DNA of 64,000 bases, from the IMG/VR virus record IMGVR_UViG_3300027963_000058, positions 27,015-91,014 of that record; one strand, 5' to 3'. Origin of the DNA: a virus. Lineage: Duplodnaviria > Caudoviricetes. A program made the position numbers and the translations under genes. This document shows positions 51,289-64,000 of the stretch, piece by piece. Under the pieces are notes generated by a model, which saw only the letters and a program-made list of their open reading frames with translations, was not told the DNA's origin and did no database searches. Every line of letters begins with the position of its first letter. Positions within the stretch are counted from its first letter, which is position 1.

Positions 51289-51333
51289 TGATGAATTTTA
51301 TATCTTTTAAGGTTATGATGCTGAAGTTATAAC

Positions 51334-51362
51334 AGTGTACTACGTTTACAACACAAAGTCAA
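51334..51362 (-). promoter_or_regulatory. Sigma70-like promoter
   Basis: TTGACT-N17-TACACT. Confidence 0.55.
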
Positions 51363-51426
51363 TAGAAAGTTAATACATTGTATGCACTAACATTGAGAAT
51401 AATAAATTGAAAACTACAGATCAGAT

Positions 51427-51723
51427 TTATTCGGTTACTTCTTCAATTATATTGGTAAATGTAGTACATTCAACAATAGTGGTAAGATATTCTGACAACG
51501 CCGCTTGCCATGTCTCAGCTGATGCACGATCACTAAAATACCTAACTGCATTAAGTTCGTCGATCTTATTAAGTTCCCCGTCGGTTTTCCCATCAGCTAT
51601 TAATTGCGATAACAGTTCGTGAAGGTTCTCACCATCGTTATTGTTGAGACCATTGGGCCAAGTCCCAAAGCTAAAATTTAGTGGTTCCTTGTAGGTAAAA
51701 GTACTTTTTATGTTATATGCCAT
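51427..51723 (-). CDS. Small hypothetical protein
   Basis: GGAG RBS, with TATAAATA upstream. Confidence 0.7.
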   Translation of the reverse strand: MAYNIKSTFTYKEPLNFSFGTWPNGLNNNDGENLHELLSQLIADGKTDGELNKIDELNAVRYFSDRASAETWQAALSEYLTTIVECTTFTNIIEEVTE

Positions 51724-51747
51724 TATGATCTCCGTTAATTGCTATAA

Positions 51748-51755
51748 TATTTATA
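51748..51755 (-). promoter_or_regulatory. T4-like late promoter TATAAATA
   Basis: Exact T4 gp55 consensus in an intergenic region. Confidence 0.65.
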
Positions 51756-51770
51756 CAGATCTATTTATTG

Positions 51771-51935
51771 TTATCTGCCGCGACCAGCACTTCTAGTAGG
51801 CGGTTTTTTGCCCTGTGGAGGTTGTGTGCGAGTTTTAGTCTTTTTGTCCACACTGGGTGCATCATCTGCATCTGGGTGTTTTATACCCTTTTTCCGGTCT
51901 AATGCGGCTTGGATTTGATCGCTTAATTTGCTCAT
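51771..51935 (-). CDS. 54-aa basic protein (not in track)
   Basis: AAGGA RBS; MSKLSDQIQAALDRKKG...RSAGRGR*. Confidence 0.65.
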   Translation of the reverse strand: MSKLSDQIQAALDRKKGIKHPDADDAPSVDKKTKTRTQPPQGKKPPTRSAGRGR

Positions 51936-51954
51936 GTTAGTCCTTTATTTATTT

Positions 51955-52030
51955 TGGAGCGGGCGAAGAGGCTCGAACTCTCGACATCTTCCTTGGCAAG
52001 GAAGTGCTCTACCAACTGAGCTACACCCGC
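51955..52030 (-). tRNA. tRNA-Gly(GCC)
   Basis: Cloverleaf; CTTCC-TTGCCAA-GGAAG; encoded CCA. Confidence 0.96.
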
Positions 52031-52038
52031 TTTGTTAC

Positions 52039-52114
52039 TGGCTCCCCAACGTGGACTCGAACCACGGACCAACAGATTAACAGTCTGTTGCTCTACCGAC
52101 TGAGCTATCAGGGA
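52039..52114 (-). tRNA. tRNA-Asn(GTT)
   Basis: ACAGA-CTGTTAA-TCTGT; encoded CCA. Confidence 0.96.
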
Positions 52115-52121
52115 ACTGTCC

Positions 52122-52196
52122 TGGTGCTGATGAGTGGGATTGAACCACCGACTTCCTCCTTACCAAGGAGGTACTCTACCACTGAGTTACATCAGC
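52122..52196 (-). tRNA. tRNA-Thr(GGT)
   Basis: CCTCC-TTGGTAA-GGAGG; encoded CCA. Confidence 0.96.
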
Positions 52197-52203
52197 CAAT
52201 CTG

Positions 52204-52431
52204 TTACTCCGTGGCAGGTTGTTCTACAACTACCGCTGGCTTAGGTATTTGACCACGCTTGGTTAATAGGTTCATCCTGCGCTGGATCTTGGCCTGTTCT
52301 TTTGGCTTGCTGGATTTATCTCGCATGGTTTCGAGTTGTGTAAAATTCAACGGACCCAAGCGTTGACGACCGTTTTTGGTCTTGTTTGGATCCGCTTTTC
52401 TATTTTTTTGATTGCTACCTTTAGTGGCCAT
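52204..52431 (-). CDS. Small basic hypothetical protein
   Basis: AAGGA RBS; TKNGRQRLGPLN. Confidence 0.7.
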   Translation of the reverse strand: MATKGSNQKNRKADPNKTKNGRQRLGPLNFTQLETMRDKSSKPKEQAKIQRRMNLLTKRGQIPKPAVVVEQPATE

Positions 52432-52473
52432 AACTGTTTCCTTGTGTGAAACAACTACTTACCAGGTTGTTGT

Positions 52474-52707
52474 CTACCCGTGAACTTTTTGGAAATAATC
52501 CGCACCAACTTCACCTTGTTCAATTTCCATCAAGGCAGTGACCATGCTACCGTCAGTTGATATGATCCGGGCTGTGTAATTCTTTTTTAATTCTCTGGCA
52601 CGGGCACAGGCGATTAACACCATGTCATAACGACTACCGATGGCCTCAGCGGCACGTTGACTTGTTAAACCGTTCATGTTTCTTGCTTCTAATGGTAAAC
52701 CGTTCAT
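52474..52707 (-). CDS. rpoZ: RNA polymerase omega subunit homolog
   Basis: AAEAIGSRYDMVLIACARAREL...TALMEIEQG matches the omega pattern; AGGAG RBS. Confidence 0.85.
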   Translation of the reverse strand: MNGLPLEARNMNGLTSQRAAEAIGSRYDMVLIACARARELKKNYTARIISTDGSMVTALMEIEQGEVGADYFQKVHG

Positions 52708-52732
52708 GCTATCTCCTAGAGTGTAAAAATTT

Positions 52733-52761
52733 ATTATACAGTTATTAAAACAAAAGGTCAA
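52733..52761 (-). promoter_or_regulatory. Early sigma70 promoter
   Basis: TTGACC-N17-TATAAT. Confidence 0.85.
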
Positions 52762-52762
52762 G

Positions 52763-52864
52763 AAAAATGTTGGTTTTTGTGTGTCAGGATTACCAACAAC
52801 CCCGTGAGCGCAGCCCATCCTGTTTTCGCGTCAGCGGATGCGGAATATGGTTACAGGTCCGCAT
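52763..52864 (-). ncRNA. Candidate structured RNA element ending in a terminator-like hairpin
   Basis: ATGCGGA/TCCGCAT, TGGGC/GCTCA and TGTTGGT/ACCAACA+T5 stems, with loop complementarities. Confidence 0.45.
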
Positions 52865-52872
52865 AATTCTAC

Positions 52873-53475
52873 TTACATTGTGGGACCGTTGCCGTTCCTG
52901 AACCCAACTTCTCCACCTTCTGCTTCGATACGAGCAATAACTTCTTCAAACAAGATCGGAGCAAAGTCGGTCTGTTCCACGCATACGCAATGATATCTAG
53001 GATCGATTGCATCGCTGTACAAGACTTCTCCAGTTCTGGCATCAACTCCACGGGCCTTACGCACACGATTGGCGTGCAAGTGTCCGTGTATGTTTACACC
53101 AAACCGTCCAAGACTTTCTGCGTGTACCGGGATATGGCTAAGGATCATGCCGTTCATGACATGATACGCACGGAGTTCACGAAAGTGTTCACGATAGTCA
53201 GTGTCCCGGAAGATGTCGTGATTACCACGGATAAGAACTTTATCCCCGTTTAGTCTACTCATGATAGAAAGACTTTTACGGTTGATAACAACGTCACCCA
53301 AGTGATACACCTTGTCCGTGGGCCGGACTTGATCGTTCCAGGCCTTGACCATGGCTTCGTCCATTTCTTCTGCCGAATCCCACGGGCGTAACTTGGTCAC
53401 TCCGTCGTTGCGTGTGAAGCGACATACACCTGCGTGACCAAAATGCGTGTCACTTACTAAAAATACACTGGGCAT
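52873..53475 (-). CDS. Calcineurin-like metallophosphoesterase
   Basis: SDTHFGH, LGD, GNHD, HGHLH; promoter TTGACC-N17-TATACT at 53501-53529. Confidence 0.9.
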   Translation of the reverse strand: MPSVFLVSDTHFGHAGVCRFTRNDGVTKLRPWDSAEEMDEAMVKAWNDQVRPTDKVYHLGDVVINRKSLSIMSRLNGDKVLIRGNHDIFRDTDYREHFRELRAYHVMNGMILSHIPVHAESLGRFGVNIHGHLHANRVRKARGVDARTGEVLYSDAIDPRYHCVCVEQTDFAPILFEEVIARIEAEGGEVGFRNGNGPTM

Positions 53476-53490
53476 AAGCGCCTCCTTTCT

Positions 53491-55485
53491 TTAATTATTA
53501 AGTATAACAGCCTGTTCATTATTGGTCAACCTGGACCAACAATCGGTGTGTTTCCATGCAAAATGGAAATCTGTGGGATTATTGTCAAAATCTGGATCTG
53601 CTTGTAGTCCTAGATCAAAATCAGCAGTCCACTGTCCTTGATCGTTGATTTCAAAATCATACCGGCCCCAAAATCTATGCCGACCACCTCGCGGATAACG
53701 ACTATATCCAAAGTCGGTTAGGTCTTGATCAGGATCAAATTCCAAATGAAACTTGAATGGACCTGCACCCAGCCACATCACACGCAAGAATGGCCATATT
53801 TCATTGACTAATGCGTCGGCTACAGGATTGATATTGACCTTTATGATTTCGTAATCAAAATCTTTTTCCCACGGAATGTCATCCGTCCAGTCAGTTGAAC
53901 CGGGTTCAAACTTGTAGTGATTTTTTAATGTGGGATATTGTAGATGCGGTCTATACTTTTCTGGTGCATGCATGCTGTGTGATCTAAATTGCTCTAGCAA
54001 AATATTCGTACATTTAAACCTTACGAATCTTGTAAATGCTGTATTTCTCATATCTTGAGTAGTCCATGCCATAGACCAATCGTATTTGTGAACACCAAAC
54101 CGTTCGCGTTCGAGTTCTAACGGAGTTCCGTGGCCTAGTCCGCAGGTGCCCGAGCTTTGACTGCCCATTCCAGAATTTCGTAATCGCCACATCAGGGTCA
54201 TGGTCTGTGCCACGTCAGTGAGTTCTTCTCCGGGGAAACCGGTAAACCATGTGGCAAAATTGCTATGCATATTGATTGCAAGTAGGTCGCGAAAGTTTTG
54301 TTCTATAGACTCAACCTTGCAATTTTTTTTCATCAACTCCAGAACTTTTTGACTGCCAGATTCCACACCAAATGCAAATCCACTAGCACCACTTTTCTTT
54401 AAGAGACGCCAAAAATCAATATCCATTTTTCCATCAATACGTGCATAGCCAGTCCAATTGACCCGGATGCTTTTCTCTAGTAGGCCTTCAGCAAAGGCTC
54501 GCAGTTCTTTGAGATTACCGTTTAACAAACTGTCAATAAACCACACAGCCTTGATACCTTTGGATCGATAAGCAATTTCGATTTCTTCTAGTACTCGAGA
54601 ACTTTGTCTAGCCCTAAACTTCCAAAACACAGTTTCATTACAATACACACAATTAGCAATACATCCACGACTGAATTCGCAACTGATTCCGCCTGAGTCA
54701 TAAAGTGTTAGATCAAAGTCAGCATAGTCTGCTGGCGGCATTGAATCTAGATCTACTCGTTGATCTTTAGATTGTATGCAAATATGCGGAATTGTTTCTG
54801 TGGGATTTTCTAGATTTTCTAAGATACGCACAAACCATAATTCACCTTCGCCGCTGACAATATGATCAGCAACCGACATATCACTTACCTTGAGCTGTGT
54901 GGCATTGGCTCCGCCAATGATAATGGTCACACCCGGAAGTCTGGCTCGCAATTCACGTGCCATCCATACAGTGCAAGTGTCGTTGGTATACCAACTGCTG
55001 AATCCAATCACGGTAGGAGCCCACGCCACAATTTCGTCCATGTATTTGCGCACAGTCAATTCAATCTTGGGATGTATGTTTTCACTGTAATGAGGTTCGG
55101 TCCATTTCCAATCTTCATAGGCAGTCCAGTATTCCTTACAACCAGCCTCATGCATGGTCAAAATATTGATGTCCCAACATTGTGTGGCAAACCCGCTATG
55201 CCGACTGATCGCAGCCATCCTGGCAATACCATACGGAGGAGCTAAAGGAGTCCATTCAGGAGCCACAACTAGCGCAACTCGATTTTTACGAGTTATTGAC
55301 TGAGTCATTTCTACCTGTGTAAGATTTTTTTGTTTGCGTGGTTCTAGGGCCGTTGCGGTGCCGTGCTCGGCCATGTAGATTTCTGCCATTTTCACATGCG
55401 GATCAACACTGCCAAGGGCCGGTGTAAGATCAGGTGCCTGGGTAGTTTGTAGTATGGGGTATATTTTTTGGGGAGGTTGCGTCAT
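53491..55485 (-). CDS. Cobalamin-binding radical SAM enzyme (class B)
   Basis: B12 domain (PPYG, IGFS, IIIGG, GEGE); SRGCIANCVYC; GVESGS; GFPGE. Confidence 0.9.
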   Translation of the reverse strand: MTQPPQKIYPILQTTQAPDLTPALGSVDPHVKMAEIYMAEHGTATALEPRKQKNLTQVEMTQSITRKNRVALVVAPEWTPLAPPYGIARMAAISRHSGFATQCWDINILTMHEAGCKEYWTAYEDWKWTEPHYSENIHPKIELTVRKYMDEIVAWAPTVIGFSSWYTNDTCTVWMARELRARLPGVTIIIGGANATQLKVSDMSVADHIVSGEGELWFVRILENLENPTETIPHICIQSKDQRVDLDSMPPADYADFDLTLYDSGGISCEFSRGCIANCVYCNETVFWKFRARQSSRVLEEIEIAYRSKGIKAVWFIDSLLNGNLKELRAFAEGLLEKSIRVNWTGYARIDGKMDIDFWRLLKKSGASGFAFGVESGSQKVLELMKKNCKVESIEQNFRDLLAINMHSNFATWFTGFPGEELTDVAQTMTLMWRLRNSGMGSQSSGTCGLGHGTPLELERERFGVHKYDWSMAWTTQDMRNTAFTRFVRFKCTNILLEQFRSHSMHAPEKYRPHLQYPTLKNHYKFEPGSTDWTDDIPWEKDFDYEIIKVNINPVADALVNEIWPFLRVMWLGAGPFKFHLEFDPDQDLTDFGYSRYPRGGRHRFWGRYDFEINDQGQWTADFDLGLQADPDFDNNPTDFHFAWKHTDCWSRLTNNEQAVILNN

Positions 55486-55508
55486 TATGCAATATTTATC
55501 AACCAATT

Positions 55509-55601
55509 TGGCGGAGAGCTAGGGATTCGAACCCTAGATGGACTGTTTAGATCCATGCCCGCTTAGTAGGCGGGTGCCTTCGACCGCTCGGCTAGCTCTC
55601 C
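55509..55601 (-). tRNA. tRNA-Ser(ACT)
   Basis: CCCGC-CTACTAA-GCGGG; long variable arm; G73; encoded CCA. Confidence 0.92.
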
Positions 55602-55607
55602 ATAACA

Positions 55608-55683
55608 TGGCGCTCTCGACCGGATTCGAACCGGTGTACTCGCCGTGAAAGGGCGATGTCCTGGGCCTCTAGACGACGAGAGC
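55608..55683 (-). tRNA. tRNA-Glu(TTC)
   Basis: TCGCC-CTTTCAC-GGCGA; encoded CCA. Confidence 0.96.
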
Positions 55684-55691
55684 ATAAACGA

Positions 55692-55811
55692 TTAGCAAAG
55701 AAAGGCCTCAACCCTACACTTGTAACACGGTGCTAGTAGACTAGCTATCTTGCGATATTAGAGCCTCAACCCTAAACTTGTAACACGGTCGCTGTAAACA
55801 GCATCTGCTAA
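55692..55811 (-). ncRNA. Candidate structured ncRNA with two 27-nt repeats, between tRNA-Asp and tRNA-Glu
   Basis: Closing stem TTAGCAGA/TTTGCTAA, three internal hairpins including a GCAA tetraloop, and repeats at 55705-55731 and 55763-55789. Confidence 0.65.
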
Positions 55812-55814
55812 ACT

Positions 55815-55889
55815 TGGCGGTCCCAGAGAGAATTGAACTCTCGACTGAAGCGTGACAAGCTCCTATATTAACCACTATACTATGGAACC
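55815..55889 (-). tRNA. tRNA-Asp(GTC)
   Basis: GGAGC-TTGTCAC-GCTTC; encoded CCA. Confidence 0.95.
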
Positions 55890-55895
55890 AAATCT

Positions 55896-56063
55896 TTACA
55901 TAAACTTTGCCTGCTTGACAGCTTTGATAGCCAAATAGGCCTGGTGCTTGTATTTTGTAATGGCAACATAGGCTTGAGTTCTTTTTTCTTGTTTGCTCAT
56001 TTGCCCAGCCAAGGTACGACTCAACTGTGAATTTGACTGCTGTGTTTTTGGTTGCTTGGCCAT
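55896..56063 (-). CDS. 55-aa basic protein (not in track)
   Basis: AAGGA RBS; MAKQPKTQQSNSQLSRTLAGQ... Confidence 0.65.
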   Translation of the reverse strand: MAKQPKTQQSNSQLSRTLAGQMSKQEKRTQAYVAITKYKHQAYLAIKAVKQAKFM

Positions 56064-56092
56064 GTTATCTATTCCTTTATGTTTAAGTTACT

Positions 56093-56121
56093 ATTTTAGT
56101 AGCTTTTGTCATTGTTGTCAA
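56093..56121 (-). promoter_or_regulatory. Sigma70 promoter for the Asp-ncRNA-Glu-Ser unit
   Basis: TTGACA-N17-TAAAAT. Confidence 0.75.
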
Positions 56122-56168
56122 CTTAGACCTGGCCTAAGGCGTTATTATAGTACAACAGTGAGGTTATT

Positions 56169-56279
56169 ATGACTATTCAACAAAAACTAACACAATTCAA
56201 TCGAGCTAGAACCGCCCGCGGACTACGCCCAGTGACCTTACAAGAATTCCGGCATCGACAGGCTATAATTGTTGTTTGA
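56169..56279 (+). CDS. 36-aa peptide (not in track)
   Basis: GAGGT RBS; MTIQQKLTQFNRARTARGLRPVTLQEFRHRQAIIVV*. Confidence 0.45.
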   Translation: MTIQQKLTQFNRARTARGLRPVTLQEFRHRQAIIVV

Positions 56280-58184
56280 TTGCGTAACGGGTAGCCGGGC
56301 AATTTTGGTCTTGCCAAAGTTGCGTTTGCGCCCAAAGTAAAAATTTTCAAGAAACATGGTTGCGCTCATATGCTTGTCCTCAGCAGTATCAAATTCATAA
56401 CGCACTGGTTGATCCAGATCAGTGCCGTGTACCAAATGACCCCAAAAGTCCCAGTCCAGATTGATTTGTTTGGGCAAGTGCCCAAGATCGGTATGCTTGA
56501 TTACTGTGGCTTTTTGGAACTGTATCAATTGTTCCAGCTGTTCAAATTTGTAATGCGTATTCACAAAGTCTGTGACTAGATCATACACAGCATCAATTCT
56601 GTTTTCTTGATGCAACATCAACGTGGTTCGATTGTGCAGATGCCAACCCAGCATTTCAATGTTGCCAATGCGGGTGTGTTGGACCCGGCCATTTGCAATC
56701 CAGTCTTGATAGCACTGTCGAGTCTGCGCAAGATGCTCGTGCCACCAAGGATCTTGTTGTATGACCGCATACAATCGATCATAAAATTCACTATATTCAA
56801 CGCCAGTGCTGTGCAGGTATCTTGCAATGTAAGTGGTCAAGCCGTTGATGTGAAATGCGTTTATGAAACTGTTCCAGGTCATGATGTCCAGCATCTCAGT
56901 TCTTGATATATCTCTAGTGCCAACTACCACTTCGATACTTTCTTCTACTTCACCGTTGGAATAACTGCCGGACATGTAGTCGTAAATTGGTACTGCATCC
57001 AGTTGATAGAACTTGCGCTGACTGAGATTCATTTCGGCATTTTCCAACAACTGAGCATGCAATATGCTTATGCCTGTATGGTTGCCGGCTTTGAACAGAG
57101 TCCAAAAATTCTCACGCCAACTTTCAGTAGTCTCGCCTGGCAAGCCCAATATAAGTTCGGTGTGGATTGGAATATTGTTTTGATCACACAAGGAGAATAT
57201 CTCACTTATCTTGTGTTGATTTAAATTTTTACGTTTTATTATATCAAGCACATTGTTGTCCATGCTTTGTACACTCACAGTAAGTCCTTGACTGCTGGTT
57301 GGGCTTTCGCGTACTAGTTTTTTTACAATGTCAATCACGGCATTTTTTTGATTCTTGGCCCAGGTTATACTGAAGTTTGTAATTTTACCCCAGTGTCGTT
57401 GCACTTCAATTAACTTGTCTATGACTGCATTGTCACGTTCAATGAACATGCCAAAGTTGGCATCAGTAATGGTTACAAATCCACAATTCTGTCCCATCCA
57501 GTCCAGTTCAGCAAACACTCGCTCAAGATCAAACTGCTTGACCTTGCTGTAGGTTAGGCTGCCCCAGTCACAAAAGGTACATTGATATGGGCAACCTCTG
57601 TTGGTTTCAAGAGTGCCGTTCCAGATGACATCTGGATGGTCCCGGATCAACTGATCAAATAGTCCTGTCAGATACGGGCTTGGTAACTGTGACAGATCCG
57701 CAATGCGTTCAGCATTGCCGGTATCCACTGCTTGACCTGTTACATTTAAAACAAGTCCGGCTACCTGGGCCAGGTCCTGACCATAATGGGTCAGTAGATC
57801 GCTAAAGATCTTTTCACCTTCCATTTTGACTATGGCATCAAGATAAGGATGCTTATGAAAAATGTCTGGGTCAACAATGGCTGGTTCTGGTCCACCTACA
57901 ACAATTATGCAAGCAGGATTCAGTTGTTTGATCCGCTTGGCCAGGGCATAACTATACTCGCGATTCCACACATACACACTGAAAGCCACCAAGTCATTAC
58001 GACATAGTTCATGAGCAACGGATTCTACGGGATCTCGTCGCCAAATAATATCGGTCACTTGCCAATCAGGATTGTGTTGCAAGGCATAAGCCAACACAAC
58101 GCCTGCACTATAAGGTAAAAAATGTGCGTTGAGTTCTTTGGGTCCTTGCGGAAAATTTACCTGTACGAATCCGATGGTTTTCAT
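56238..58184 (-). CDS. Cobalamin-binding radical SAM enzyme (class B)
   Basis: LPYS, FSVYVWN, GGPE, EGE; RGCPYQCTFC; DANFG; GLPGET. True start is MKTIGF (the track start runs into tRNA-Cys). Confidence 0.9.
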   Translation of the reverse strand: MKTIGFVQVNFPQGPKELNAHFLPYSAGVVLAYALQHNPDWQVTDIIWRRDPVESVAHELCRNDLVAFSVYVWNREYSYALAKRIKQLNPACIIVVGGPEPAIVDPDIFHKHPYLDAIVKMEGEKIFSDLLTHYGQDLAQVAGLVLNVTGQAVDTGNAERIADLSQLPSPYLTGLFDQLIRDHPDVIWNGTLETNRGCPYQCTFCDWGSLTYSKVKQFDLERVFAELDWMGQNCGFVTITDANFGMFIERDNAVIDKLIEVQRHWGKITNFSITWAKNQKNAVIDIVKKLVRESPTSSQGLTVSVQSMDNNVLDIIKRKNLNQHKISEIFSLCDQNNIPIHTELILGLPGETTESWRENFWTLFKAGNHTGISILHAQLLENAEMNLSQRKFYQLDAVPIYDYMSGSYSNGEVEESIEVVVGTRDISRTEMLDIMTWNSFINAFHINGLTTYIARYLHSTGVEYSEFYDRLYAVIQQDPWWHEHLAQTRQCYQDWIANGRVQHTRIGNIEMLGWHLHNRTTLMLHQENRIDAVYDLVTDFVNTHYKFEQLEQLIQFQKATVIKHTDLGHLPKQINLDWDFWGHLVHGTDLDQPVRYEFDTAEDKHMSATMFLENFYFGRKRNFGKTKIARLPVTQSNNNYSLSMPEFL

Positions 58185-58204
58185 TGTGTGCTGGTATTTA
58201 TTGC

Positions 58205-58282
58205 TGGAAGTACGGGTCGGAATCGAACCGACGGTTTTACAGCTTTGCAGGCTGTTGCCTTGGACCACTCGGCCACCGTACT
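58205..58282 (-). tRNA. tRNA-Cys(GCA)
   Basis: ACAGC-CTGCAAA-GCTGT; U73; encoded CCA. Confidence 0.95.
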
Positions 58283-58287
58283 ATATC

Positions 58288-58361
58288 TGGAGCAGGATGC
58301 GAGAATCGAACTCGCGTCATCAGTTTGGAAGACTGTCATAATACCATTATACTAATCCTGC
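58288..58361 (-). tRNA. tRNA-Gly(TCC)
   Basis: CAGT-CTTCCAA-ACTG; encoded CCA. Confidence 0.95.
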
Positions 58362-58367
58362 ACAACT

Positions 58368-58443
58368 TGGGGTGATGTATGGGACTTGAACCCATGCTAA
58401 CGGCTTCACAAACCGTGGTGCTAACCACTACACTAACTTCACC
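58368..58443 (-). tRNA. tRNA-His(GTG)
   Basis: ACGGT-TTGTGAA-GCCGT; G-1:C73 pair; encoded CCA. Confidence 0.95.
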
Positions 58444-58450
58444 ATTGTTC

Positions 58451-58524
58451 TGGCGAATCCCCAGGGAGTCGAACCCCGGCCCTCAGTTTTGGAGACTGAT
58501 GTGCTACCGTAACACTTGGGACTC
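58451..58524 (-). tRNA. tRNA-Trp(CCA)
   Basis: TCAGT-CTCCAAA-ACTGA; encoded CCA. Confidence 0.95.
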
Positions 58525-58684
58525 ATCTATCTGATCTGGCTGGTAACACTCTACTCTTCAACTCAGCCTCGGCACGTTTGAGCTTGTCTTCAAACAGTCG
58601 CTGTTTCATTTCTTCAGTTAAGACCAAGTTACCAATGGCCTGCTTTACAATCTGTTGATTCAATCTGGTATAATCTATTGTCAT
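58523..58684 (-). CDS. 53-aa protein (not in track), first gene after the attenuator
   Basis: AAAGGAAAG RBS; MTIDYTRLNQQIVKQAIGNL... Confidence 0.6.
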   Translation of the reverse strand: MTIDYTRLNQQIVKQAIGNLVLTEEMKQRLFEDKLKRAEAELKSRVLPARSDR

Positions 58685-58703
58685 TTTTCTTTCCTTTTAA
58701 AAT

Positions 58704-58736
58704 AAAAAAAGCCCCTAAATCACTTTAGAGGCTTTT
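58704..58736 (-). terminator. Attenuator terminator hairpin
   Basis: GCCTCTAAA-GTGA-TTTAGGGGC followed by T7. Confidence 0.88.
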
Positions 58737-58771
58737 GAATATAATTGATACAATCGCTATTCAAATGCCTC
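58728..58771 (-). promoter_or_regulatory. Antiterminator hairpin, mutually exclusive with the terminator
   Basis: GAGGCATTTGAATA (58771-58758) pairs 13/14 with TATTCAAAAGCCTC (58741-58728), which overlaps the terminator 5' arm. Confidence 0.8.
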
Positions 58772-58840
58772 ACTCAAATGACCGTCCTCTTGCCAAGCGC
58801 AAGTGTCCAAACAAAGATGGATGCAGTATTGATTCTTCAT
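58757..58840 (-). CDS. 27-aa putative attenuator leader peptide MKNQYCIHLCLDTCAWQEDGHLSEAFE
   Basis: Starts 9 nt after the -10 box; last codons and stop form the antiterminator 5' arm. Confidence 0.75.
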   Translation of the reverse strand: MKNQYCIHLCLDTCAWQEDGHLSEAFE

Positions 58841-58849
58841 TATGTAACT

Positions 58850-58878
58850 ATTGTATACGAGTATTTATTATGTGTCAA
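58850..58878 (-). promoter_or_regulatory. Sigma70 promoter of the tRNA operon (with embedded AATAAATA)
   Basis: TTGACA-N17-TACAAT. Confidence 0.85.
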
Positions 58879-58889
58879 CCTTTAAAAGG

Positions 58890-59993
58890 TCAACCTTTGA
58901 ATTTGGCCATATCCTGTGGTACCAGCTCCATGGATACGGAAATATTTGGATTTAACTGAGTGGACACATGCCACTGTTTTTGATTTGTTATTAACAAATG
59001 CAATTCAGATTGCGTATGCTCGTTGTGTTTTTTTATTTGATTGTGCAGGTGGCCTGAAAAAACATTCTGTCTGCATAACTTTAGATTGTGCTTGAATCTT
59101 GGTTGATTGTCCTGCACAAACTGACACACCCGATCTGGATCTTGTAACAGGTCTAGATTGCGTTCAATGGCTGAGTAACATCGATCTAGTGGATCCGGCA
59201 TGTTTTGATATCTGTGATCGACCACATCATTAAACATATCAAATCCCAACTCACTCAACCTATCGGCATGCCGCCATCCACCTACCCAAATTGGTATAGT
59301 TCCGCCCCAGATGGCCATGATGGTTTTTTCTGAAATCCTGGTCTCGCGTTCAAAAAACAAACTTTCAGTGATCAGGCTAATGCAACTGGGTTCAAACACT
59401 GTGGTTCGTAACAGTTTATCATAAGTGTCTTGATTGGTAAAATTACCATTTTGTAACCCTTGATCCAGCAGATCTTCTGTGCCAAACATGTAGCTGGTTC
59501 CGGGTATAGTAGTCTCAGCGTTGTCTGATATGATTTTATGGTAATGGTCATTGTTGGTTAGAGTCATCAGTCTTTTACTGCCCAGGTGTTTTTCTTTCCA
59601 GGGCAAACTGTAGGTGTAATTGGTCAATCCAAAATGTGCTATCAGCATCAATAAAAAATTTCTATGCACTCTGGGTTTGTTGATCATGAAATTAAACGCA
59701 ACAGTTTTTTTACCCCAGTTGGGTTGTATGGCATGGGCATTGAACCGATCACAAACTTCAGCAGTGAATCTTGGAAAAGTAACACAGTTATACCGGGCCA
59801 GTACATCATCATGTCCAAGTCCTTCGATGATTACAAGATGCTGTTGTGGATCACACTCACTGTTTGCCAGTAATTTTTCCACCTGAAAGCAATGATTGGC
59901 TTCATCATAATGATGGTCGTCCATGTAGATAATGGCTGGTTGGGTAAGGATTTCTCCCTGATACTGATAGTCAGGGCCGAATATTTTAATCAT
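58890..59993 (-). CDS. GT-B-like glycosyltransferase paralog
   Basis: FNFMINKPRVHR; ISLITES..ISEKT..GFDMF..DHRY; start MIKIFG. Confidence 0.6.
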   Translation of the reverse strand: MIKIFGPDYQYQGEILTQPAIIYMDDHHYDEANHCFQVEKLLANSECDPQQHLVIIEGLGHDDVLARYNCVTFPRFTAEVCDRFNAHAIQPNWGKKTVAFNFMINKPRVHRNFLLMLIAHFGLTNYTYSLPWKEKHLGSKRLMTLTNNDHYHKIISDNAETTIPGTSYMFGTEDLLDQGLQNGNFTNQDTYDKLLRTTVFEPSCISLITESLFFERETRISEKTIMAIWGGTIPIWVGGWRHADRLSELGFDMFNDVVDHRYQNMPDPLDRCYSAIERNLDLLQDPDRVCQFVQDNQPRFKHNLKLCRQNVFSGHLHNQIKKHNEHTQSELHLLITNQKQWHVSTQLNPNISVSMELVPQDMAKFKG

Positions 59994-60038
59994 AGTTAAT
60001 CTATTAAACTGATATTTATTAGGGGTTAACACGCAATC

Positions 60039-60046
60039 TATAAATA
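60039..60046 (+). promoter_or_regulatory. T4-like late promoter TATAAATA (divergent partner AATAAATA at 60013-60020)
   Basis: Exact consensus 5 nt before ATG 60052. Confidence 0.65.
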
Positions 60047-60051
60047 TCATC

Positions 60052-61059
60052 ATGTTATCTTTGCATGAAATAAAACACGTCCAGATTGAATTGACCACAC
60101 GATGTAATGCTAGATGCCCTATGTGCATGAGAAACTATCGCGGGTTTGATTACAATGGTGGTTATCCTGAAACTGAACTTAGCCTGGCGGACATACAAAA
60201 AATACTAGCTCCTGATTTTTTAAATCAGCTACGCTCGGTAAAGTTTAACGGCAATCTTGGAGATTTTGGCCTGGCCACTGACGCCTTGGACATAGTACAC
60301 TGGTTAGTGGATCAAGATGTTAGAGTGTATATCAATACCAATGGCAGCATGCGGACACCCAGTTGGTGGGCACAATTAGCCCAACCTGGTGTCACCATTG
60401 GTTTTGCGCTGGATGGCATGGCTGATACACATAGTTTGTATAGACAAGACACTAATTGGCATACCGTGATTAAAAATGCCCAGGAATTTATTGATGCAGG
60501 CGGAGAAGCAATCTGGAGATTCATACCATTTGATCACAACCGGCACCAAGAACAAGAATGCAAACAATTGGCCTCTAACATGGGATTTGCACGATTTGAA
60601 AATATCGACGAAGGACGAAATCGCGGTCCTGTGTATACCAGGACTGGTCAGCTTAGTCATCTGCTTGGCAAGCCCTTTACTGGCCACGACTCAGTCCCGC
60701 CTGATGTTCAATCACTATTGGCCAGTCATGTGACCTGGTTTGACCATCGCACAGTAAGCTGTGACAAAGACACCCAGCCATTGAATTTGATCTGTCAACA
60801 CAAACGTATGAAAGAATTATACATAGCAGCAGATGGATCAGTATATCCGTGTTGTTTTTTAGGATTCTATCCTGAAACCATGCACCATCCAGGTAACAGT
60901 CAATTGAAAGAGCTAGTAAAAGAAAACAATGCATTAGAATACGATCTAGAACACTGTCTCAAATGGTTTGATGCTATAGAAGAAAGCTGGAGCAAAGATT
61001 CAATAGCCGAAGGTCGCTTGTACGGATGCGTAAATTCGTGTGGTGGTCGTAGTAGTTAA
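60052..61059 (+). CDS. Radical SAM enzyme with C-terminal SPASM/twitch domain
   Basis: CNARCPMC; TNG; [19 protein letters not shown]. Confidence 0.9.
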
Positions 61060-61075
61060 TTTTAAAAGGAACGTA

Positions 61076-61951
61076 ATGACTTCAGCAAAAATTTTGTATC
61101 TAGCACGTTATCGAGTGCCGCATGCTATCATGAGCCTGCAACCTGAATTTACCAAACATTTGATTGGCGTAGACAGGACCTGTATCGCCAGTCCGGTACC
61201 TAAAGAAGAACTTTGGCCCATCTTTGAAAAATACAACATTGATACCACAAACTTTGATTATGCACCGGACAGTGAAATTTACAGGCTATATCCTGAAGTC
61301 AACAACTGGGTATTTGAAGGCGACTACAGGACCTATTGGTTGCGTCAACAGGCCATCAAGTTTGCGTTTTTAGATTACCTTGATTACGATCTCATGGTCA
61401 TGCACGACTGTGACTGCTTGTTGATACAAGACTATGAACCCTTCAAGAACAACATGCTCAACTTCATGGTGTTGGAAAATGAACGACACAGTTGGGGTTA
61501 TTATGAAAGTATCAAGAATGCTCTGGGATTTGAACGACTTACTCCGCACTGCTTTATTAGCGAGTTTGTGCCAGTGCTCAAACGCGACTTCGACGACCTT
61601 GTGACATTTTTAGAAACAACACACAAGAAAAAATGGTTGGATGCCATGATTGACAGTTGCCCACCAGAGCCTACTGTACCACCTTGGGGCAAGGGAGAAT
61701 TAATACGTTGGTTCAGCGAGTATGAATTTATCGGTAACTGGGCCATGAGCCGACAACCGATCACTATGGAATTCCAGCGACGCTATCACTACGATGACAT
61801 GGAAAACATTGGCGGCTTTGATCCTGCCCTCCACACAGCAGTATGTGATGCTGTGCCCGATCTTTCTAGAAGTTTGCAGTTTGATTGGACACGTCGAGAA
61901 GTTGTACGCCTTGATTATTACATGGACAAGATACGTGAACACTTGGCTTAA
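61076..61951 (+). CDS. GT-A-like protein (DUF6492-like)
   Basis: WLRQQAIK, HDCD (DxD), FSEYE; AAAGGA RBS. Confidence 0.55.
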   Translation: MTSAKILYLARYRVPHAIMSLQPEFTKHLIGVDRTCIASPVPKEELWPIFEKYNIDTTNFDYAPDSEIYRLYPEVNNWVFEGDYRTYWLRQQAIKFAFLDYLDYDLMVMHDCDCLLIQDYEPFKNNMLNFMVLENERHSWGYYESIKNALGFERLTPHCFISEFVPVLKRDFDDLVTFLETTHKKKWLDAMIDSCPPEPTVPPWGKGELIRWFSEYEFIGNWAMSRQPITMEFQRRYHYDDMENIGGFDPALHTAVCDAVPDLSRSLQFDWTRREVVRLDYYMDKIREHLA

Positions 61952-62999
61952 CAACCTCAAGATATACAGCCCTGGTTATGAAGGCAGATACTGGGGATTC
62001 AACGTCGGGCAGTTTGTAGACCTTAGCACCGCGCTTGAACAACCGGTCAAAATTGCTGTGTTACCTGTGTTCTATAACAAGCCCGCAGAGTTCAGTTATA
62101 GACCCGAGTACGCCAGTCTTGACGTTTCTCAATTTGATCTTGTGGTATTTGTCGACATTGAATTTAGATTCCAGACCGAACTGGTAGACTGGATTGCAAC
62201 CACCGGAGTTTCAAATTGGTTACTCAGCATGGGCGGGTTACATGCGGGCGAAGTGCTAGATGCAAGAACTGTATATGTACCGGTATGGAGTTTTAACTTT
62301 TTACAATGGAACACGCCACGTGCGGATTTTCCACTAGATAGGCCATTCTTGTTTGACTGTTTATGTGGTACACGGAGATCACACAGAGATTATGTGATGC
62401 TGGCCTTGGAACAGTCAGGACTGCTGAATCAATCTATCGCAACCTACCGAGATGTGTTTATTGGTGGCGATTGCACTTCTACTCCGCTACATGTGCAGAA
62501 CGAATTTCCAGGCCGACAAGTACTTTGGCCATATGTGAGCCCAAATCTTGACCCCGAGTGGGAGGTAGGATCAAAAATAGACCACACTATCAGTGGCATA
62601 GTGCCATGGGAAATCTACAATCGCACATACTATAGCATCTTGGTGGAAACACTGGGATATGGAAGTACCTATCTCATGGCTGAAAAAATAGGTAAATGTT
62701 TATTTGGCCGCAGACTATTTGTGCATTTTGGTGCTGCTAACTGGCTATCAACATTAAAAAGTTTTGGGTTTGAAACTTTTGATTCCGTACTAGACGAAAG
62801 CTATGATACTCAGTCTACGATTGATACACGCAGATACAAAGCGGCATTTGACCAGGTAGAATGGTTGAGCAAACAAAATCATCCTGCGTTGTTGCAAAAG
62901 GTTCGCCCTATACTAGATCACAATCATGATAACCTGTATCGTTTTAAAGAGCAAAAGCTCACGGAAATGCAAGAGCTATTTGTTGCTTACTGTAGATAA
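61935..62999 (+). CDS. GT-B-like glycosyltransferase paralog
   Basis: FDCLCG..HR; YSILVET..AEKIGK..GFETF..DESYD. Confidence 0.6.
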   Translation: MNTWLNNLKIYSPGYEGRYWGFNVGQFVDLSTALEQPVKIAVLPVFYNKPAEFSYRPEYASLDVSQFDLVVFVDIEFRFQTELVDWIATTGVSNWLLSMGGLHAGEVLDARTVYVPVWSFNFLQWNTPRADFPLDRPFLFDCLCGTRRSHRDYVMLALEQSGLLNQSIATYRDVFIGGDCTSTPLHVQNEFPGRQVLWPYVSPNLDPEWEVGSKIDHTISGIVPWEIYNRTYYSILVETLGYGSTYLMAEKIGKCLFGRRLFVHFGAANWLSTLKSFGFETFDSVLDESYDTQSTIDTRRYKAAFDQVEWLSKQNHPALLQKVRPILDHNHDNLYRFKEQKLTEMQELFVAYCR

Positions 63000-63000
63000 T

Positions 63001-63723
63001 TTATTCTAGTATAGAATTCTCGCGAATATAATTAACTAAAAATTCGTTTAATTTTTGATGATGCCCAGCCTTTGGGTGCTTGATATCATCTGGTACATCA
63101 TATATAGGATTGGCTCCATAGTTGGTTGGCGGCACACCATTGCTTAATTGCCACGGGACCGCACGCCATCTGTATCCATCTATGATAGTACTAGTGCTTT
63201 TGAAAAGAGCCAGGCGTGGATCGTCTAGATATTCTTGATATAATGGGTCAGCCTGTTGATACACCAACACACGGTGTCCACGAGCATGTAAACTAGAAAT
63301 CATGCTTAATATTTTATACATTAAATCTTCAACACGATCTAATATACTGTACATTTCACTGTTTAGTTTAAGAGTCACAAACTGATTGGTTTCAGCTTGC
63401 CCCCACCCATATTGCCAGTCTTTTGCAAACTGTTGATTTTGTGGATTTGTCCAACGTCCTTCAAATTCAGATTGATTCTCCAAGATAGGAATTTCTAGTC
63501 TACTCAAAAATGTCATGCCTAGCACATACAAAGTTGGTTGTACAGTTTGATAACTGTGTTTGAGTGTGGTGCGTATGATTCTAGTGTTAGCACTACCGCC
63601 AATGGCCAAACTTTCAGAAGCAACCATGCCTAGTTGATCAGCAAGATCCCAGTGTCCAACACCTAGAGCGTAAGCCTCCATATAACTACAACCATTTACC
63701 ACTAGATGATTAACTTTGTCCAT
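63001..63723 (-). CDS. SGNH-hydrolase-like protein
   Basis: NGCSY, LAIGGSAN, C-terminal HP..HH. Confidence 0.6.
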   Translation of the reverse strand: MDKVNHLVVNGCSYMEAYALGVGHWDLADQLGMVASESLAIGGSANTRIIRTTLKHSYQTVQPTLYVLGMTFLSRLEIPILENQSEFEGRWTNPQNQQFAKDWQYGWGQAETNQFVTLKLNSEMYSILDRVEDLMYKILSMISSLHARGHRVLVYQQADPLYQEYLDDPRLALFKSTSTIIDGYRWRAVPWQLSNGVPPTNYGANPIYDVPDDIKHPKAGHHQKLNEFLVNYIRENSILE

Positions 63724-64000
63724 GCGCTTGGGTGATCAGTTTATAAAAATTTTCTGCAATAATCGCTTGTCCAGCAGGACTTGAATGATATCCAGGATCT
63801 TCCCCTTTAAATGGATTGTTGCCGCATATGGCCTGTGGTGAGTGTTTTGGATCTAGATTGATATAGTGATCAGGAACCACATCTGGAAATGCCTGTCGCC
63901 ATTGATTGATATTATCTGGATCAAACGGCCACAGCAAATTGGGCAACACCAGGAATTTGATACCGTCTAGATACATCGTGATTACACCTTCACGTATAAT
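63710..64000 (-). CDS. SGNH-like protein, C-terminal part (start lies outside the window)
   Basis: DPGYHSSPAGQAIIA block-V-like motif. Confidence 0.5.
   Translation of the reverse strand: MIREGVITMYLDGIKFLVLPNLLWPFDPDNINQWRQAFPDVVPDHYINLDPKHSPQAICGNNPFKGEDPGYHSSPAGQAIIAENFYKLITQAHGQS

What the first reader, a model, noticed from the sequence alone, without database searches (positions are those of the whole stretch)
58205..58878. Leader-peptide attenuator controlling a phage tRNA operon: a putative tRNA-on-demand sensor
Seen (minus strand), in order: promoter TTGACA-N17-TACAAT; a near-leaderless 27-aa ORF MKNQYCIHLCLDTCAWQEDGHLSEAFE*; a terminator (GCCTCTAAA/TTTAGGGGC+T7); a 53-aa ORF; then tRNA-Trp, His, Gly and Cys. 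The leader's last codons and stop (GAGGCATTTGAATA) pair 13/14 with the segment overlapping the terminator's 5' arm. The leader has 3 Cys, 2 His, 1 Trp and 1 Gly, matching the amino acids of the four tRNAs (its GGT codon is read by the GCC tRNA, not TCC). By my count 15 of 26 codons are cognate to tRNAs in this window, and 17 amino acids are sampled. Established: this is trp/his/pheST attenuator architecture. Inference: complete translation masks the antiterminator (OFF), while stalling from tRNA cleavage or starvation frees it (ON). The phage could thus sense host tRNA-targeting defences (PrrC/PARIS-type) and supply replacement tRNAs. I know of no described attenuator on a phage tRNA operon.
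Basis: partly seen in the sequence, partly recalled or inferred. Interest (0 to 1): 0.92.

Follow-up and report, generated by a model that had tools for sequence, protein, structure and literature searches.

The report
Leader-peptide attenuator before phage tRNA genes
A lake phage places a tiny translated test gene and a switchable transcription stop in front of a small protein gene and its Trp/His/Gly/Cys tRNA genes, so it probably makes these tRNAs only when ribosomes translate slowly.

Summary

New here is that the unit is conserved. It runs promoter, start codon 6-9 nt after the -10, 27-47-aa ORF, hairpin, terminator, ribosome-binding site, small protein, tRNAs. It recurs in 22 loci with 18 distinct leader RNAs. 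A 23rd, divergent copy is L177.

- The ORF is open and ends inside the 5' arm of an antiterminator hairpin, or just 3' of it in L177. The 3' arm of that hairpin holds 5-12 of the 10-13 nt of the terminator's 5' arm.
- Both helices are kept across clades through changed sequence.
- In 17 of 18 nascent-RNA folds the antiterminator forms unless a ribosome sits on the stop codon.

My best reading is a ribosome-mediated transcription attenuator that is ON when leader translation is slow. Trp and Cys codons are the only ones kept in all leaders. Wider matching between leader codons and the tRNA set is weak, and defence sensing is untested. There are no expression data.

Eight literature searches found no such control of tRNA genes. 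This scan has noted the same idea on other phage DNA.

The parts
58850..58878 (-). Sigma-70-type promoter TTGACA-N17-TACAAT. The GGTTGAC...ATAAATA...TA[TC]AAT core is shared by related modules, and homology among the clade A/B loci begins at the -35.
   Evidence: 11 of 12 consensus positions. One search shows invariant columns in 12 of 12 sequences. Searches show the flanks upstream of GGTTGAC differ between loci.
58757..58840 (-). Leader ORF of 27 aa plus TAG, MKNQYCIHLCLDTCAWQEDGHLSEAFE*. The ATG lies 9 nt after the -10 with no SD, so it is near-leaderless. Trp codon at 58795-58793; Cys codons at 58825-58823, 58813-58811 and 58801-58799.
   Evidence: The ORF is open in 22 of 22 modules, ranging 27-47 aa. 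The other two frames carry 0-6 stops. pN/pS is 0.57-0.74 in frame and 0.72-1.65 out of frame.
58789..58803 (-). Small hairpin CTTGC-GCTTG-GCAAG that holds the Cys14, Trp16 and Gln17 codons. It may be a pause hairpin (inference).
   Evidence: 5 pairs kept in 9 of 9 clade A/B sequences, with U-A changed to U-G in 2. No hairpin common to clades C-F was found.
58758..58771 (-). Region 2, the antiterminator 5' arm GAGGCATTTGAATA. It covers the last four codons and the first two bases of the TAG stop.
58728..58741 (-). Region 3, TATTCAAAAGCCTC. It is both the antiterminator's 3' arm and the G/C part of the terminator's 5' arm, so it is the switching segment.
   Evidence: 8 of 13 terminator-arm nt are sequestered. 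(own-clade duplexes are more stable than cross-clade ones)..
58704..58736 (-). Intrinsic terminator: stem 58736-58724 with 58719-58707, loop GTGA, T7 run 58710-58704.
   Evidence: (-16.0 kcal/mol; 100% of 139 cells paired, 3 pairs changed on both sides).
58689..58695 (-). Ribosome-binding site AGGAAAG of the 53-aa ORF, starting 8 nt after the T-run. No promoter-like site was reported between terminator and ORF.
58523..58684 (-). Conserved 53-aa protein of unknown function, predicted as a two-helix hairpin. It is the first regulated gene, and its TGA stop overlaps base 1 of tRNA-Trp.
   Evidence: (33 homologues), (pLDDT 76, helices 5-18 and 24-46). No Pfam or PHROG family for the window protein; only weak scattered Pfam matches among relatives.
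58205..58524 (-). tRNA-Trp(CCA), tRNA-His(GUG), tRNA-Gly(UCC) and tRNA-Cys(GCA), the regulated tRNA block.
   Evidence: The same block follows the module in 8 loci (L106, L107, L109, L110, L111, L114, L115, L116), with variants in L112 and L113. L108 is cut off.

Best explanation
This is a ribosome-mediated (leader-peptide) transcription attenuator. It gates a small operon made of a conserved 53-aa protein gene and the tRNA-Trp/His/Gly/Cys genes.

Proposed mechanism:
1. Host RNA polymerase starts at the strong promoter, and the transcript begins at or within about 3 nt of the leader AUG.
2. The nascent RNA folds region 2 (the last leader codons and the stop) onto region 3. This locks up the G/C half of the terminator stem, and transcription runs on into the small gene and the tRNAs (ON).
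3. If a ribosome translates the leader quickly and sits on the stop codon as region 4 emerges, region 2 is covered. Region 3 then pairs with region 4, and transcription ends at the T-run (OFF).
4. Slow decoding upstream, or no translation, leaves the switch ON.

The most likely sensing codons are the Trp codon, which lies 12-13 codons before the stop in four of six clades, and the nearby Cys codon(s). These match the two tRNAs found in the operons that could be checked. That would give a negative feedback loop on the phage's own supply of these tRNAs.

What is shown: the parts, their conservation, the two competing helices and the open frame. What is inferred: translation of the leader, a leaderless start, the sign of regulation, and which codons are sensed.
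For: 1. The unit is conserved. The 53-aa ORF has 33 homologues. Eleven metagenome loci carry the whole unit, ten viral contigs carry diverged versions, and one further contig carries a distant version. In clades A/B, homology starts at the -35 while upstream sequence differs.
2. The frame is conserved. The ORF is open in 22 of 22 modules (27-47 aa) despite 55-61% nucleotide identity between clades A and B and length changes between clades. Its stop is always inside region 2: GAA TAG in 21, GAT TGA in L123. The other frames carry 0-6 stops. The ATG lies 6-9 nt after the -10 in the 21 modules where it was measured.
3. Substitutions are mildly biased. pN/pS is 0.57-0.74 in frame and 0.72-1.65 out of frame. 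In WQEDGHL the window and L113 differ at four sites, all synonymous (sequences).
4. The helices compete.
   - The antiterminator folds at -9.1 to -22.7 kcal/mol and the terminator at -14.4 to -18.4. They share 5-12 of the 10-13 arm nt in 18 of 18 distinct modules.
   - Antiterminator z-scores are -2.1 to -5.1 in 10 of 11 representatives.
5. The helices co-evolve.
   - Terminator: 100% of 139 cells paired, against 19-71% when the partner columns are slid.
   - Antiterminator: 86.5% of 208 cells paired, against 22-52% slid.
   - Own-clade region 2:3 and 3:4 duplexes are more stable than cross-clade ones. For example, window region 2 gives -9.8 with its own region 3 and -1.9/-3.0 with the others.
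6. The geometry fits. In 17 of 18 nascent-RNA folds, 7-10 arm nt are held by region 2 with no ribosome or with a ribosome at Trp. Only 0-2 are held with a ribosome on the stop.
7. No promoter-like site was reported between terminator and the next gene, and only 8 nt separate the T-run from its ribosome-binding site. The 53-aa gene and the tRNAs therefore need read-through.
8. Trp and Cys stand out.
   - Both codons occur in all eight representative leaders and in the other window-clade variants.
   - The Trp codon is 12-13 codons from the stop in 13 of 15 distinct leaders examined.
   - tRNA-Trp and tRNA-Cys both lie downstream in all loci with more than 600 nt of downstream sequence. L108, L140 and L164 are cut off.
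9. Weak support: an RNA-library contig (X2, record 9) bridges the 53-aa ORF with tRNA-Trp and tRNA-His.
Against: - There is no Shine-Dalgarno sequence, so translation needs a leaderless start. In the window clade the ATG is 9 nt after the -10, which would leave roughly 2-3 nt of 5' UTR. From memory, this lowers leaderless translation in E. coli.
- There is no tandem run of regulatory codons, and only one Trp codon. Cys/His/Trp richness is matched by 5.9% of chance small ORFs.
- Matching between leader and tRNA set is weak. Own-set match is 0.189 against 0.166 (692 of 20000 permutations as high) by codon, and 0.248 against 0.217 (320 of 20000) by amino acid. The eight leaders used are related to one another.
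- His codons stay in clades C and D, where no tRNA-His is adjacent. The clade D tRNA with anticodon CAU has no internal Met codon to read. GGT is not read by tRNA-Gly(UCC).
- In full-length equilibrium folds the terminator coexists with the upper antiterminator stem. The switch would therefore rest on folding kinetics.
- L123's antiterminator is no better than shuffles (z = -0.17, 74 of 200).
- Only 1 of the 3 tRNA blocks in the window has the unit.
- There are no data on transcript ends or ribosome occupancy.
- The clades descend from one ancestor, so counts across loci are not independent.
Confidence: 0.6

Rival explanations
1. The same attenuator hardware, but as a general gauge of translation rather than of particular codons. 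Any slowing or lack of ribosomes (host shut-off, starvation, ribosome-targeting attack) would keep the antiterminator formed and turn on the small protein and the tRNAs. Trp and Cys codons would be kept for other reasons.
For: The default state without a ribosome is antiterminated in 17 of 18 folds. There are no tandem regulatory codons, and codon/tRNA matching is weak. Known analogues respond to general translation stress: bmrB-bmrCD (PMC4191407, search listing and start of abstract only) and the Anabaena tRNA array (PMC8421152, abstract).
Against: The Trp codon sits at a fixed distance from the stop in four clades whose peptides are otherwise unrelated. Trp and Cys codons occur in every leader, and tRNA-Trp and tRNA-Cys in the operons that could be checked.
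Confidence: 0.2
2. A small-peptide gene, or a roughly 140-nt small RNA, with its own promoter and a leaky terminator. The downstream genes would be expressed by constitutive read-through, and the alternative hairpin would serve RNA stability or be incidental.
For: A strong promoter, a short transcript and a strong terminator are the usual signature of a small RNA or micro-protein gene. The whole leader folds at z = -2.83. A short motif (Trp, Cys, then acidic residues and Gly) recurs in the peptides.
Against: The peptide sequence is poorly conserved: pN/pS is 0.57-0.74, and clades A and D share almost only Trp and the last Glu. The C-terminal codons change in step with the RNA pairing. The stop codon is fixed inside region 2. 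The terminator's G/C core is always the part sequestered. No Rfam family matches.
Confidence: 0.1
3. A switch read by a factor other than the ribosome, for example a tRNA (T-box-like) or the 53-aa protein binding the leader RNA. The ORF would be incidental.
For: The competing helices alone do not require translation. The 53-aa protein always accompanies the switch.
Against: Rfam gave no T-box or other match at E <= 1. No conserved bulge or specifier-like element appears in the alignment, and the loops vary freely. The frame, start and stop placement are kept in 22 of 22 modules.
Confidence: 0.07

Closest known systems
Leader-peptide transcription attenuators of amino-acid operons and pheST (trpL, hisL, pheL, thrL, ilv leaders) - textbook knowledge, recalled
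   Same: A short translated leader, an intrinsic terminator, and an antiterminator that shares a strand with the terminator. The position of the ribosome decides which helix forms.
   Different: The regulated genes are tRNAs plus a small protein, in a phage. There is no Shine-Dalgarno sequence (leaderless start) and no tandem run of regulatory codons. There is no conserved 1:2 hairpin, so no translation predicts read-through rather than termination. No Rfam leader family matches.
Leaderless polycysteine short ORFs of mycobacteria, the 'Cys ribulon' (bioRxiv 10.1101/834739; abstract read)
   Same: A leaderless short ORF acts as a ribosome-read sensor for the downstream operon, and Cys codons are among the sensing codons.
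   Different: [quoted passage not shown] Here an intrinsic terminator is controlled. There is no polycysteine tract (1-3 scattered Cys codons), and the targets are tRNA genes rather than cysteine metabolism.
Antibiotic-responsive ribosome-mediated transcription attenuation, e.g. bmrB-bmrCD of Bacillus subtilis (PMC4191407; search listing and start of abstract only)
   Same: It is described there as a ribosome-mediated transcriptional attenuation mechanism in which expression responds to antibiotic pressure, that is, to stress on translation.
   Different: The signal and cargo differ (a drug transporter). I did not read how its helices are arranged.
Inducible tRNA array (trn operon) of Anabaena PCC 7120 (PMC8421152, abstract read; PMC10272220, listing only)
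   Same: An accessory set of tRNA genes is silent by default and induced when translation is impaired.
   Different: Per the title and abstract start of PMC10272220, control there involves the transcriptional repressor TrcR. Neither abstract mentions a leader peptide or attenuator.
Phage tRNAs as counter-defence (PMC10264068, PMC11464382, PMC11555353; search listings and abstract starts only)
   Same: They concern phage-encoded tRNAs that replace host tRNAs lost to defence nucleases.
   Different: The abstract starts I saw say nothing on regulation of the phage tRNA genes. Nothing here links Trp or Cys tRNAs to a defence system.

Membership tests
Ribosome-mediated leader-peptide transcription attenuator | Short ORF in the 5' leader of the regulated transcript | tested here: met
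   A 27-aa ORF at 58840..58757. The ORF is open in 22 of 22 modules.
Ribosome-mediated leader-peptide transcription attenuator | Intrinsic terminator between the leader ORF and the regulated genes | tested here: met
   One search shows 100% of 139 cells paired across 16 sequences. A T-run of 6 or more follows in all modules.
Ribosome-mediated leader-peptide transcription attenuator | Antiterminator helix that excludes the terminator | tested here: met
   It shares 5-12 of 10-13 arm nt in 18 of 18 modules. z is -2.1 to -5.1 in 10 of 11 representatives. One search gives 86.5% of cells paired.
Ribosome-mediated leader-peptide transcription attenuator | Leader end placed so that a terminating ribosome masks the antiterminator | tested here: met
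   The stop codon is inside region 2 in 22 of 22 modules. In folds with the stop-codon footprint masked, 0-2 arm nt remain held, against 7-10 without the mask, in 17 of 18.
Ribosome-mediated leader-peptide transcription attenuator | Regulatory codons for the sensed amino acid or tRNA, usually in a run | tested here: inconclusive
   There is no run. Trp and Cys codons occur in all leaders, with Trp 12-13 codons from the stop in 13 of 15. Enrichment is modest and tracking is weak.
Ribosome-mediated leader-peptide transcription attenuator | 1:2 (anti-antiterminator or pause) hairpin giving termination without translation, as in trp | tested here: not met
   The 1:2 duplexes are weak and lie at different places in different clades (-4.9 to -11.2). 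Untranslated nascent RNA folds into the antiterminator in 17 of 18.
Ribosome-mediated leader-peptide transcription attenuator | Leader peptide is translated | not testable with these tools
   Support is indirect only: frame conservation and mild pN/pS. There is no SD, and the ATG lies 6-9 nt after the -10. RNA contigs did not cover the leader.
Rfam leader and T-box families | Match to a curated covariance model | tested here: not met
   Among all 4227 families at E <= 1 on 50000-60000, only tRNAs and four weak, unrelated matches appeared elsewhere in the stretch. Nothing fell on 58690-58880.
Leaderless sORF attenuators (mycobacterial Cys type) | Leaderless AUG start, a polycysteine tract, and control of a downstream ribosome-binding site | tested here: not met
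   A leaderless start is plausible from the spacing. There is no polycysteine tract, and the downstream RBS lies outside the hairpins. The element controlled is a terminator.

The most novel reading that the evidence does not exclude
A whole family of lake phages closes a feedback loop on its own tRNA supply. A leaderless mini-gene carries single Trp and Cys codons at a fixed distance from an antiterminator, and it reports how fast ribosomes decode those codons. The phage transcribes its tRNA-Trp/Cys block (with a conserved 53-aa partner protein) only when decoding is slow. This would be the first case of tRNA genes controlled by ribosome-mediated attenuation. It would also be a natural read-out of why phages carry tRNAs.
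Probability: 0.4. Interest if true: 0.85.

Novelty: new variant of a known kind. Interest (0 to 1): 0.74.

Why it matters
Why phages carry tRNA genes has been debated for decades. The proposed reasons include codon supply, replacing host tRNAs lost during infection, and escape from tRNA-cleaving defences.

A sensor wired in front of a phage tRNA block would show which signal the phage itself uses to decide when these tRNAs are needed. That makes the question testable with simple reporter fusions.

It would also extend leader-peptide attenuation to three new settings: tRNA genes as cargo, a leaderless leader ORF, and a default-ON design. The conserved unit gives a compact search signature (promoter, short ORF ending in a hairpin, terminator, ribosome-binding site) for finding more cases.

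Tried and rejected
**Searches that did not find the unit**
- Synteny through neighbouring genes failed. Relatives of the upstream 412-aa protein numbered 23 loci, with tRNAs in 2. Relatives of the downstream radical-SAM protein numbered 80 loci; 60 were scanned and tRNAs were found in 3, with only L025 having them just upstream. L025's and L008's records gave no meaningful DNA match to the leader region.
- The GenBank phage collection matched only tRNA genes.
- The 53-aa ORF found nothing in viral contigs, either as a single query or as alignment A1.
- A leader-core DNA pattern found nothing.
- I found L008's module by reading the sequence. That suggested the terminator/RBS pattern that worked.

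**Expression**
- The four RNA-library runs laid on 58100-59000 gave no contig over the leader (58690-58850). Most of their cover on the tRNAs comes from other organisms. This says nothing either way about leader expression.

**The small protein**
- The window protein gave no Pfam, PHROG or Atlas hit, and relatives gave only weak scattered Pfam matches.
- The AlphaFold model is a two-helix hairpin. I did not run a fold search on it.

**Ideas considered and dropped**
- A trp-like 1:2 hairpin: pairing is weak and not conserved in place.
- A promoter between terminator and ORF: none reported.
- T-box or a known leader family: none.
- Column-wise covariation in the lower antiterminator stem is blurred by register shifts between clades. 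I therefore also give per-sequence folds.
- RNAalifold's pairing of the A-rich 5' end with the U-run looks like a composition effect.

**Limits**
- Supplementary files were not consulted.
- Host identity was not determined. L177 lies in a 1.6-kb contig of a bin labelled Bacteroidetes, which is weak evidence.
Full report

Yes. All coordinates below are on the minus strand.

The window holds TTGACA (58878-58873), a 17-nt spacer and TACAAT (58855-58850). This matches 11 of 12 consensus positions, tied for the best score among 34 promoter-like sites in 50000-64000. That total is itself no more than in shuffles (32.7 +/- 6.6).

An ATG follows 9 nt after the -10 with no Shine-Dalgarno sequence. It opens a 27-aa ORF (58840..58757) reading MKNQYCIHLCLDTCAWQEDGHLSEAFE*.

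An intrinsic terminator follows at 58736-58707. It has 13 pairs, a GTGA loop and a T7 run, and it is the longest stem of the 13 terminator-like sites found.

A ribosome-binding site starts 8 nt after the T-run, followed by a 53-aa ORF (58684..58523). Then come tRNA-Trp(CCA), His(GUG), Gly(UCC) and Cys(GCA) at 58524..58205.

The claimed alternative pairing is there. GAGGCATTTGAATA (58771-58758, the last codons and the stop) pairs with TATTCAAAAGCCTC (58741-58728) at 13 of 14 positions. The hairpin folds at -18.2 kcal/mol with z = -5.14, and 0 of 200 shuffles fold as well.

The composition claims also hold:
- The leader has 3 Cys, 2 His, 1 Trp and 1 Gly.
- Fifteen of 26 codons are cognate to the 10 tRNAs of the 91-kb record.
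- Seventeen amino acids are used, by my count from the peptide.

The enrichment is only moderate. Cys/His/Trp make up 6 of 26 codons, against 5.5% in the phage's 51 long ORFs (binomial P = 0.002; 1.0% of 26-codon gene windows are as rich). However, 5.9% of 390 chance small ORFs are as rich.

**2. Context**

The window lies in an IMG/VR virus record of 91 kb, estimated 26% complete. The record has phage-type genes.

Two other tRNA blocks in the window (Asp-Glu-Ser and Thr-Asn-Gly) each follow a strong promoter and small ORFs, but with no terminator between. Only one of the three blocks therefore has the element.

**3. Relatives**

Neighbouring genes gave no synteny. The 53-aa ORF was the key:
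- It has 33 homologues at 77-92% identity.
- A scan of metagenome contigs with their alignment returned 11 loci.
- All 11 carry the promoter, leader ORF, hairpins and 53-aa ORF. Ten of them carry the tRNA block; L108 is cut off.
- Homology starts at GGTTGAC, the -35, while the upstream sequence differs between loci.

L112 and L113 form a second clade, at 55-61% nucleotide identity to the window within the ORF. Their leaders are MNNKIHLDHAILGACHWQVESLLVGVIE* and MNNKTQQIHVALTACHWQEDGHLDGVFE*. Their tRNA sets are Trp-Gln-His-Cys and Trp-Gln-His-Gly-Cys.

Reading L008 showed a third version. A terminator/RBS pattern then hit 58 viral stretches, and 10 of them had GAATAG within 90 nt upstream. All 10 are modules.

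A protein scan of bacterial genomes added L177, a distant version whose leader has a Shine-Dalgarno sequence.

In total there are 22 modules with 18 distinct leader RNAs, plus L177. I group them into six clades, A to F.

**4. Evidence for a translated leader**

- The frame is open in 22 of 22 modules, at 27-47 aa. The other two frames carry 0-6 stops over the same span.
- The stop lies inside region 2 in all 22: GAA TAG in 21, GAT TGA in L123. In L177 it lies just 3' of the 5' arm.
- The ATG lies 6, 7 or 9 nt after the -10 in the 21 modules measured. The mRNA would therefore be leaderless or nearly so.
- pN/pS is 0.57-0.74 in frame and 0.72-1.65 in the other frames. This is mild, as expected if the act of translation matters more than the peptide.
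- Within WQEDGHL, the window and L113 differ at four sites, all synonymous.
- The C-terminal residues change (SEAFE, DGVFE, VGVIE) in step with the RNA pairing.

**5. Evidence for the switch**

- In 18 of 18 distinct modules the antiterminator (-9.1 to -22.7 kcal/mol) and the terminator (-14.4 to -18.4) share 5-12 of the 10-13 nt of the terminator's 5' arm. The shared part always includes its G/C core.
- Ten of 11 representatives fold the antiterminator far better than shuffles (z from -2.1 to -5.1). L123 does not (z = -0.17).
- On a 16-sequence alignment the terminator has 100% of 139 cells paired, with 3 pairs changed on both sides. Slid controls give 19-71%.
- The antiterminator has 86.5% of 208 cells paired, with 3 pairs changed on both sides. 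Slid controls give 22-52%.
- These double changes mostly separate clade A from the rest, so they represent few independent events.
- Segments from different clades do not fit each other. Window region 2 gives -9.8 kcal/mol with its own region 3, and -1.9 and -3.0 with those of L112 and L113. Region 3:4 behaves likewise.
- For the nascent RNA that ends before region 4, 17 of 18 modules fold into the antiterminator, both with no ribosome and with a ribosome at the Trp codon. With a ribosome footprint on the stop codon only 0-2 arm nt remain held.
- In full-length equilibrium folds the terminator coexists with the upper antiterminator stem. The decision must therefore be kinetic, as in known attenuators.

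**6. What is sensed?**

Trp and Cys codons occur in every leader. The Trp codon lies 12-13 codons before the stop in 13 of 15 distinct leaders, covering four clades whose peptides otherwise share almost nothing. A ribosome paused there would end well upstream of region 2.

tRNA-Trp and tRNA-Cys both lie downstream in every locus with more than 600 nt of downstream sequence. L108, L140 and L164 are cut off.

Beyond Trp and Cys the match is poor:
- His codons persist in clades C and D, where no tRNA-His is adjacent.
- The clade D tRNA with anticodon CAU has no internal Met codon to read.
- GGT is not read by the UCC tRNA.
- A permutation test on eight related leaders gives only 692 of 20000 (by codon) and 320 of 20000 (by amino acid).

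I therefore hold the codon-specific reading at about 0.4, and the attenuator as such at about 0.6.

**7. Comparison with known systems**

It works like a leader-peptide attenuator but departs from the trp/his type in four ways:
- It has a leaderless start.
- It has no codon run.
- It has no 1:2 hairpin, so the default state is ON.
- Its cargo is tRNA genes.

No Rfam family matches the leader. Leaderless sensory short ORFs are known in mycobacteria, where by the abstract the stalled ribosome blocks structures that sequester the downstream ribosome-binding site (10.1101/834739, abstract). An inducible tRNA array is known in Anabaena (PMC8421152, abstract). By the title and abstract start of PMC10272220 it is controlled by the repressor TrcR.

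Eight full-text searches returned no paper describing an attenuator before tRNA genes. The library lacks most subscription journals, and older E. coli tRNA-gene papers that I recall only dimly could not be checked.

This scan's own notes report the same reading on several other phages. One was later checked at 93/100 for what was seen and 30/100 for the bold reading. These are leads, not support.

**8. Verdict**

The mechanism is well supported by anatomy and comparison but has no expression data. I class it as a new variant of a known kind.

Noticed in passing
window 58523-58525 and 58524 (minus strand); also L106-L116: The TGA stop of the 53-aa ORF overlaps the first base of tRNA-Trp. RNase P cleavage at the tRNA's 5' end would therefore remove the stop codon of that mRNA. 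In clades C' and D the small ORF ends within a few nt of the first tRNA.
   Followed up: partly
L162 9613-10053; L164 1309-1672; L140 6358-6730: ARAGORN calls permuted tmRNA genes with tag peptides in three related phage loci that also carry the attenuator module.
   Followed up: no
window 58856-58872; all modules: The promoter spacer holds an ATAAATA element that is invariant in the 12 clade A/B loci and visible in the other modules. In clades A/B, homology starts at GGTTGAC with different sequence upstream. The unit therefore behaves as a cassette.
   Followed up: partly
L116 632-1150: About 520 nt are inserted between tRNA-Trp and tRNA-His in one window-clade locus.
   Followed up: no
window 55509-55601; L106, L107, L110, L113, L172, L176: A tRNA-Ser with the unusual anticodon ACT recurs in related loci. 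The window-clade leader uses AGT for its Ser codons.
   Followed up: partly
L025 720-1745: In the closest relative by the radical-SAM gene, a strong promoter (TTGACA-N17-TACAAT) is followed by long G/C-rich non-coding stretches between scattered tRNA genes. The attenuator module is absent.
   Followed up: no
window 55896-56121 and 52204-52761: The other two tRNA blocks follow strong promoters and small basic ORFs (55 aa; an Rpb6/omega-like 114 aa plus a 75 aa) with no terminator. Small ORFs co-transcribed with tRNAs are thus a general habit of this phage.
   Followed up: partly
L177 960-1420: A 1.6-kb contig of a metagenome bin labelled Bacteroidetes carries a divergent module. Its 43-aa leader has a Shine-Dalgarno sequence and contains Trp, Cys and His. 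The antiterminator folds at -19.6 and the terminator at -17.0 kcal/mol. A two-codon ORF sits at the predicted transcript start.
   Followed up: partly
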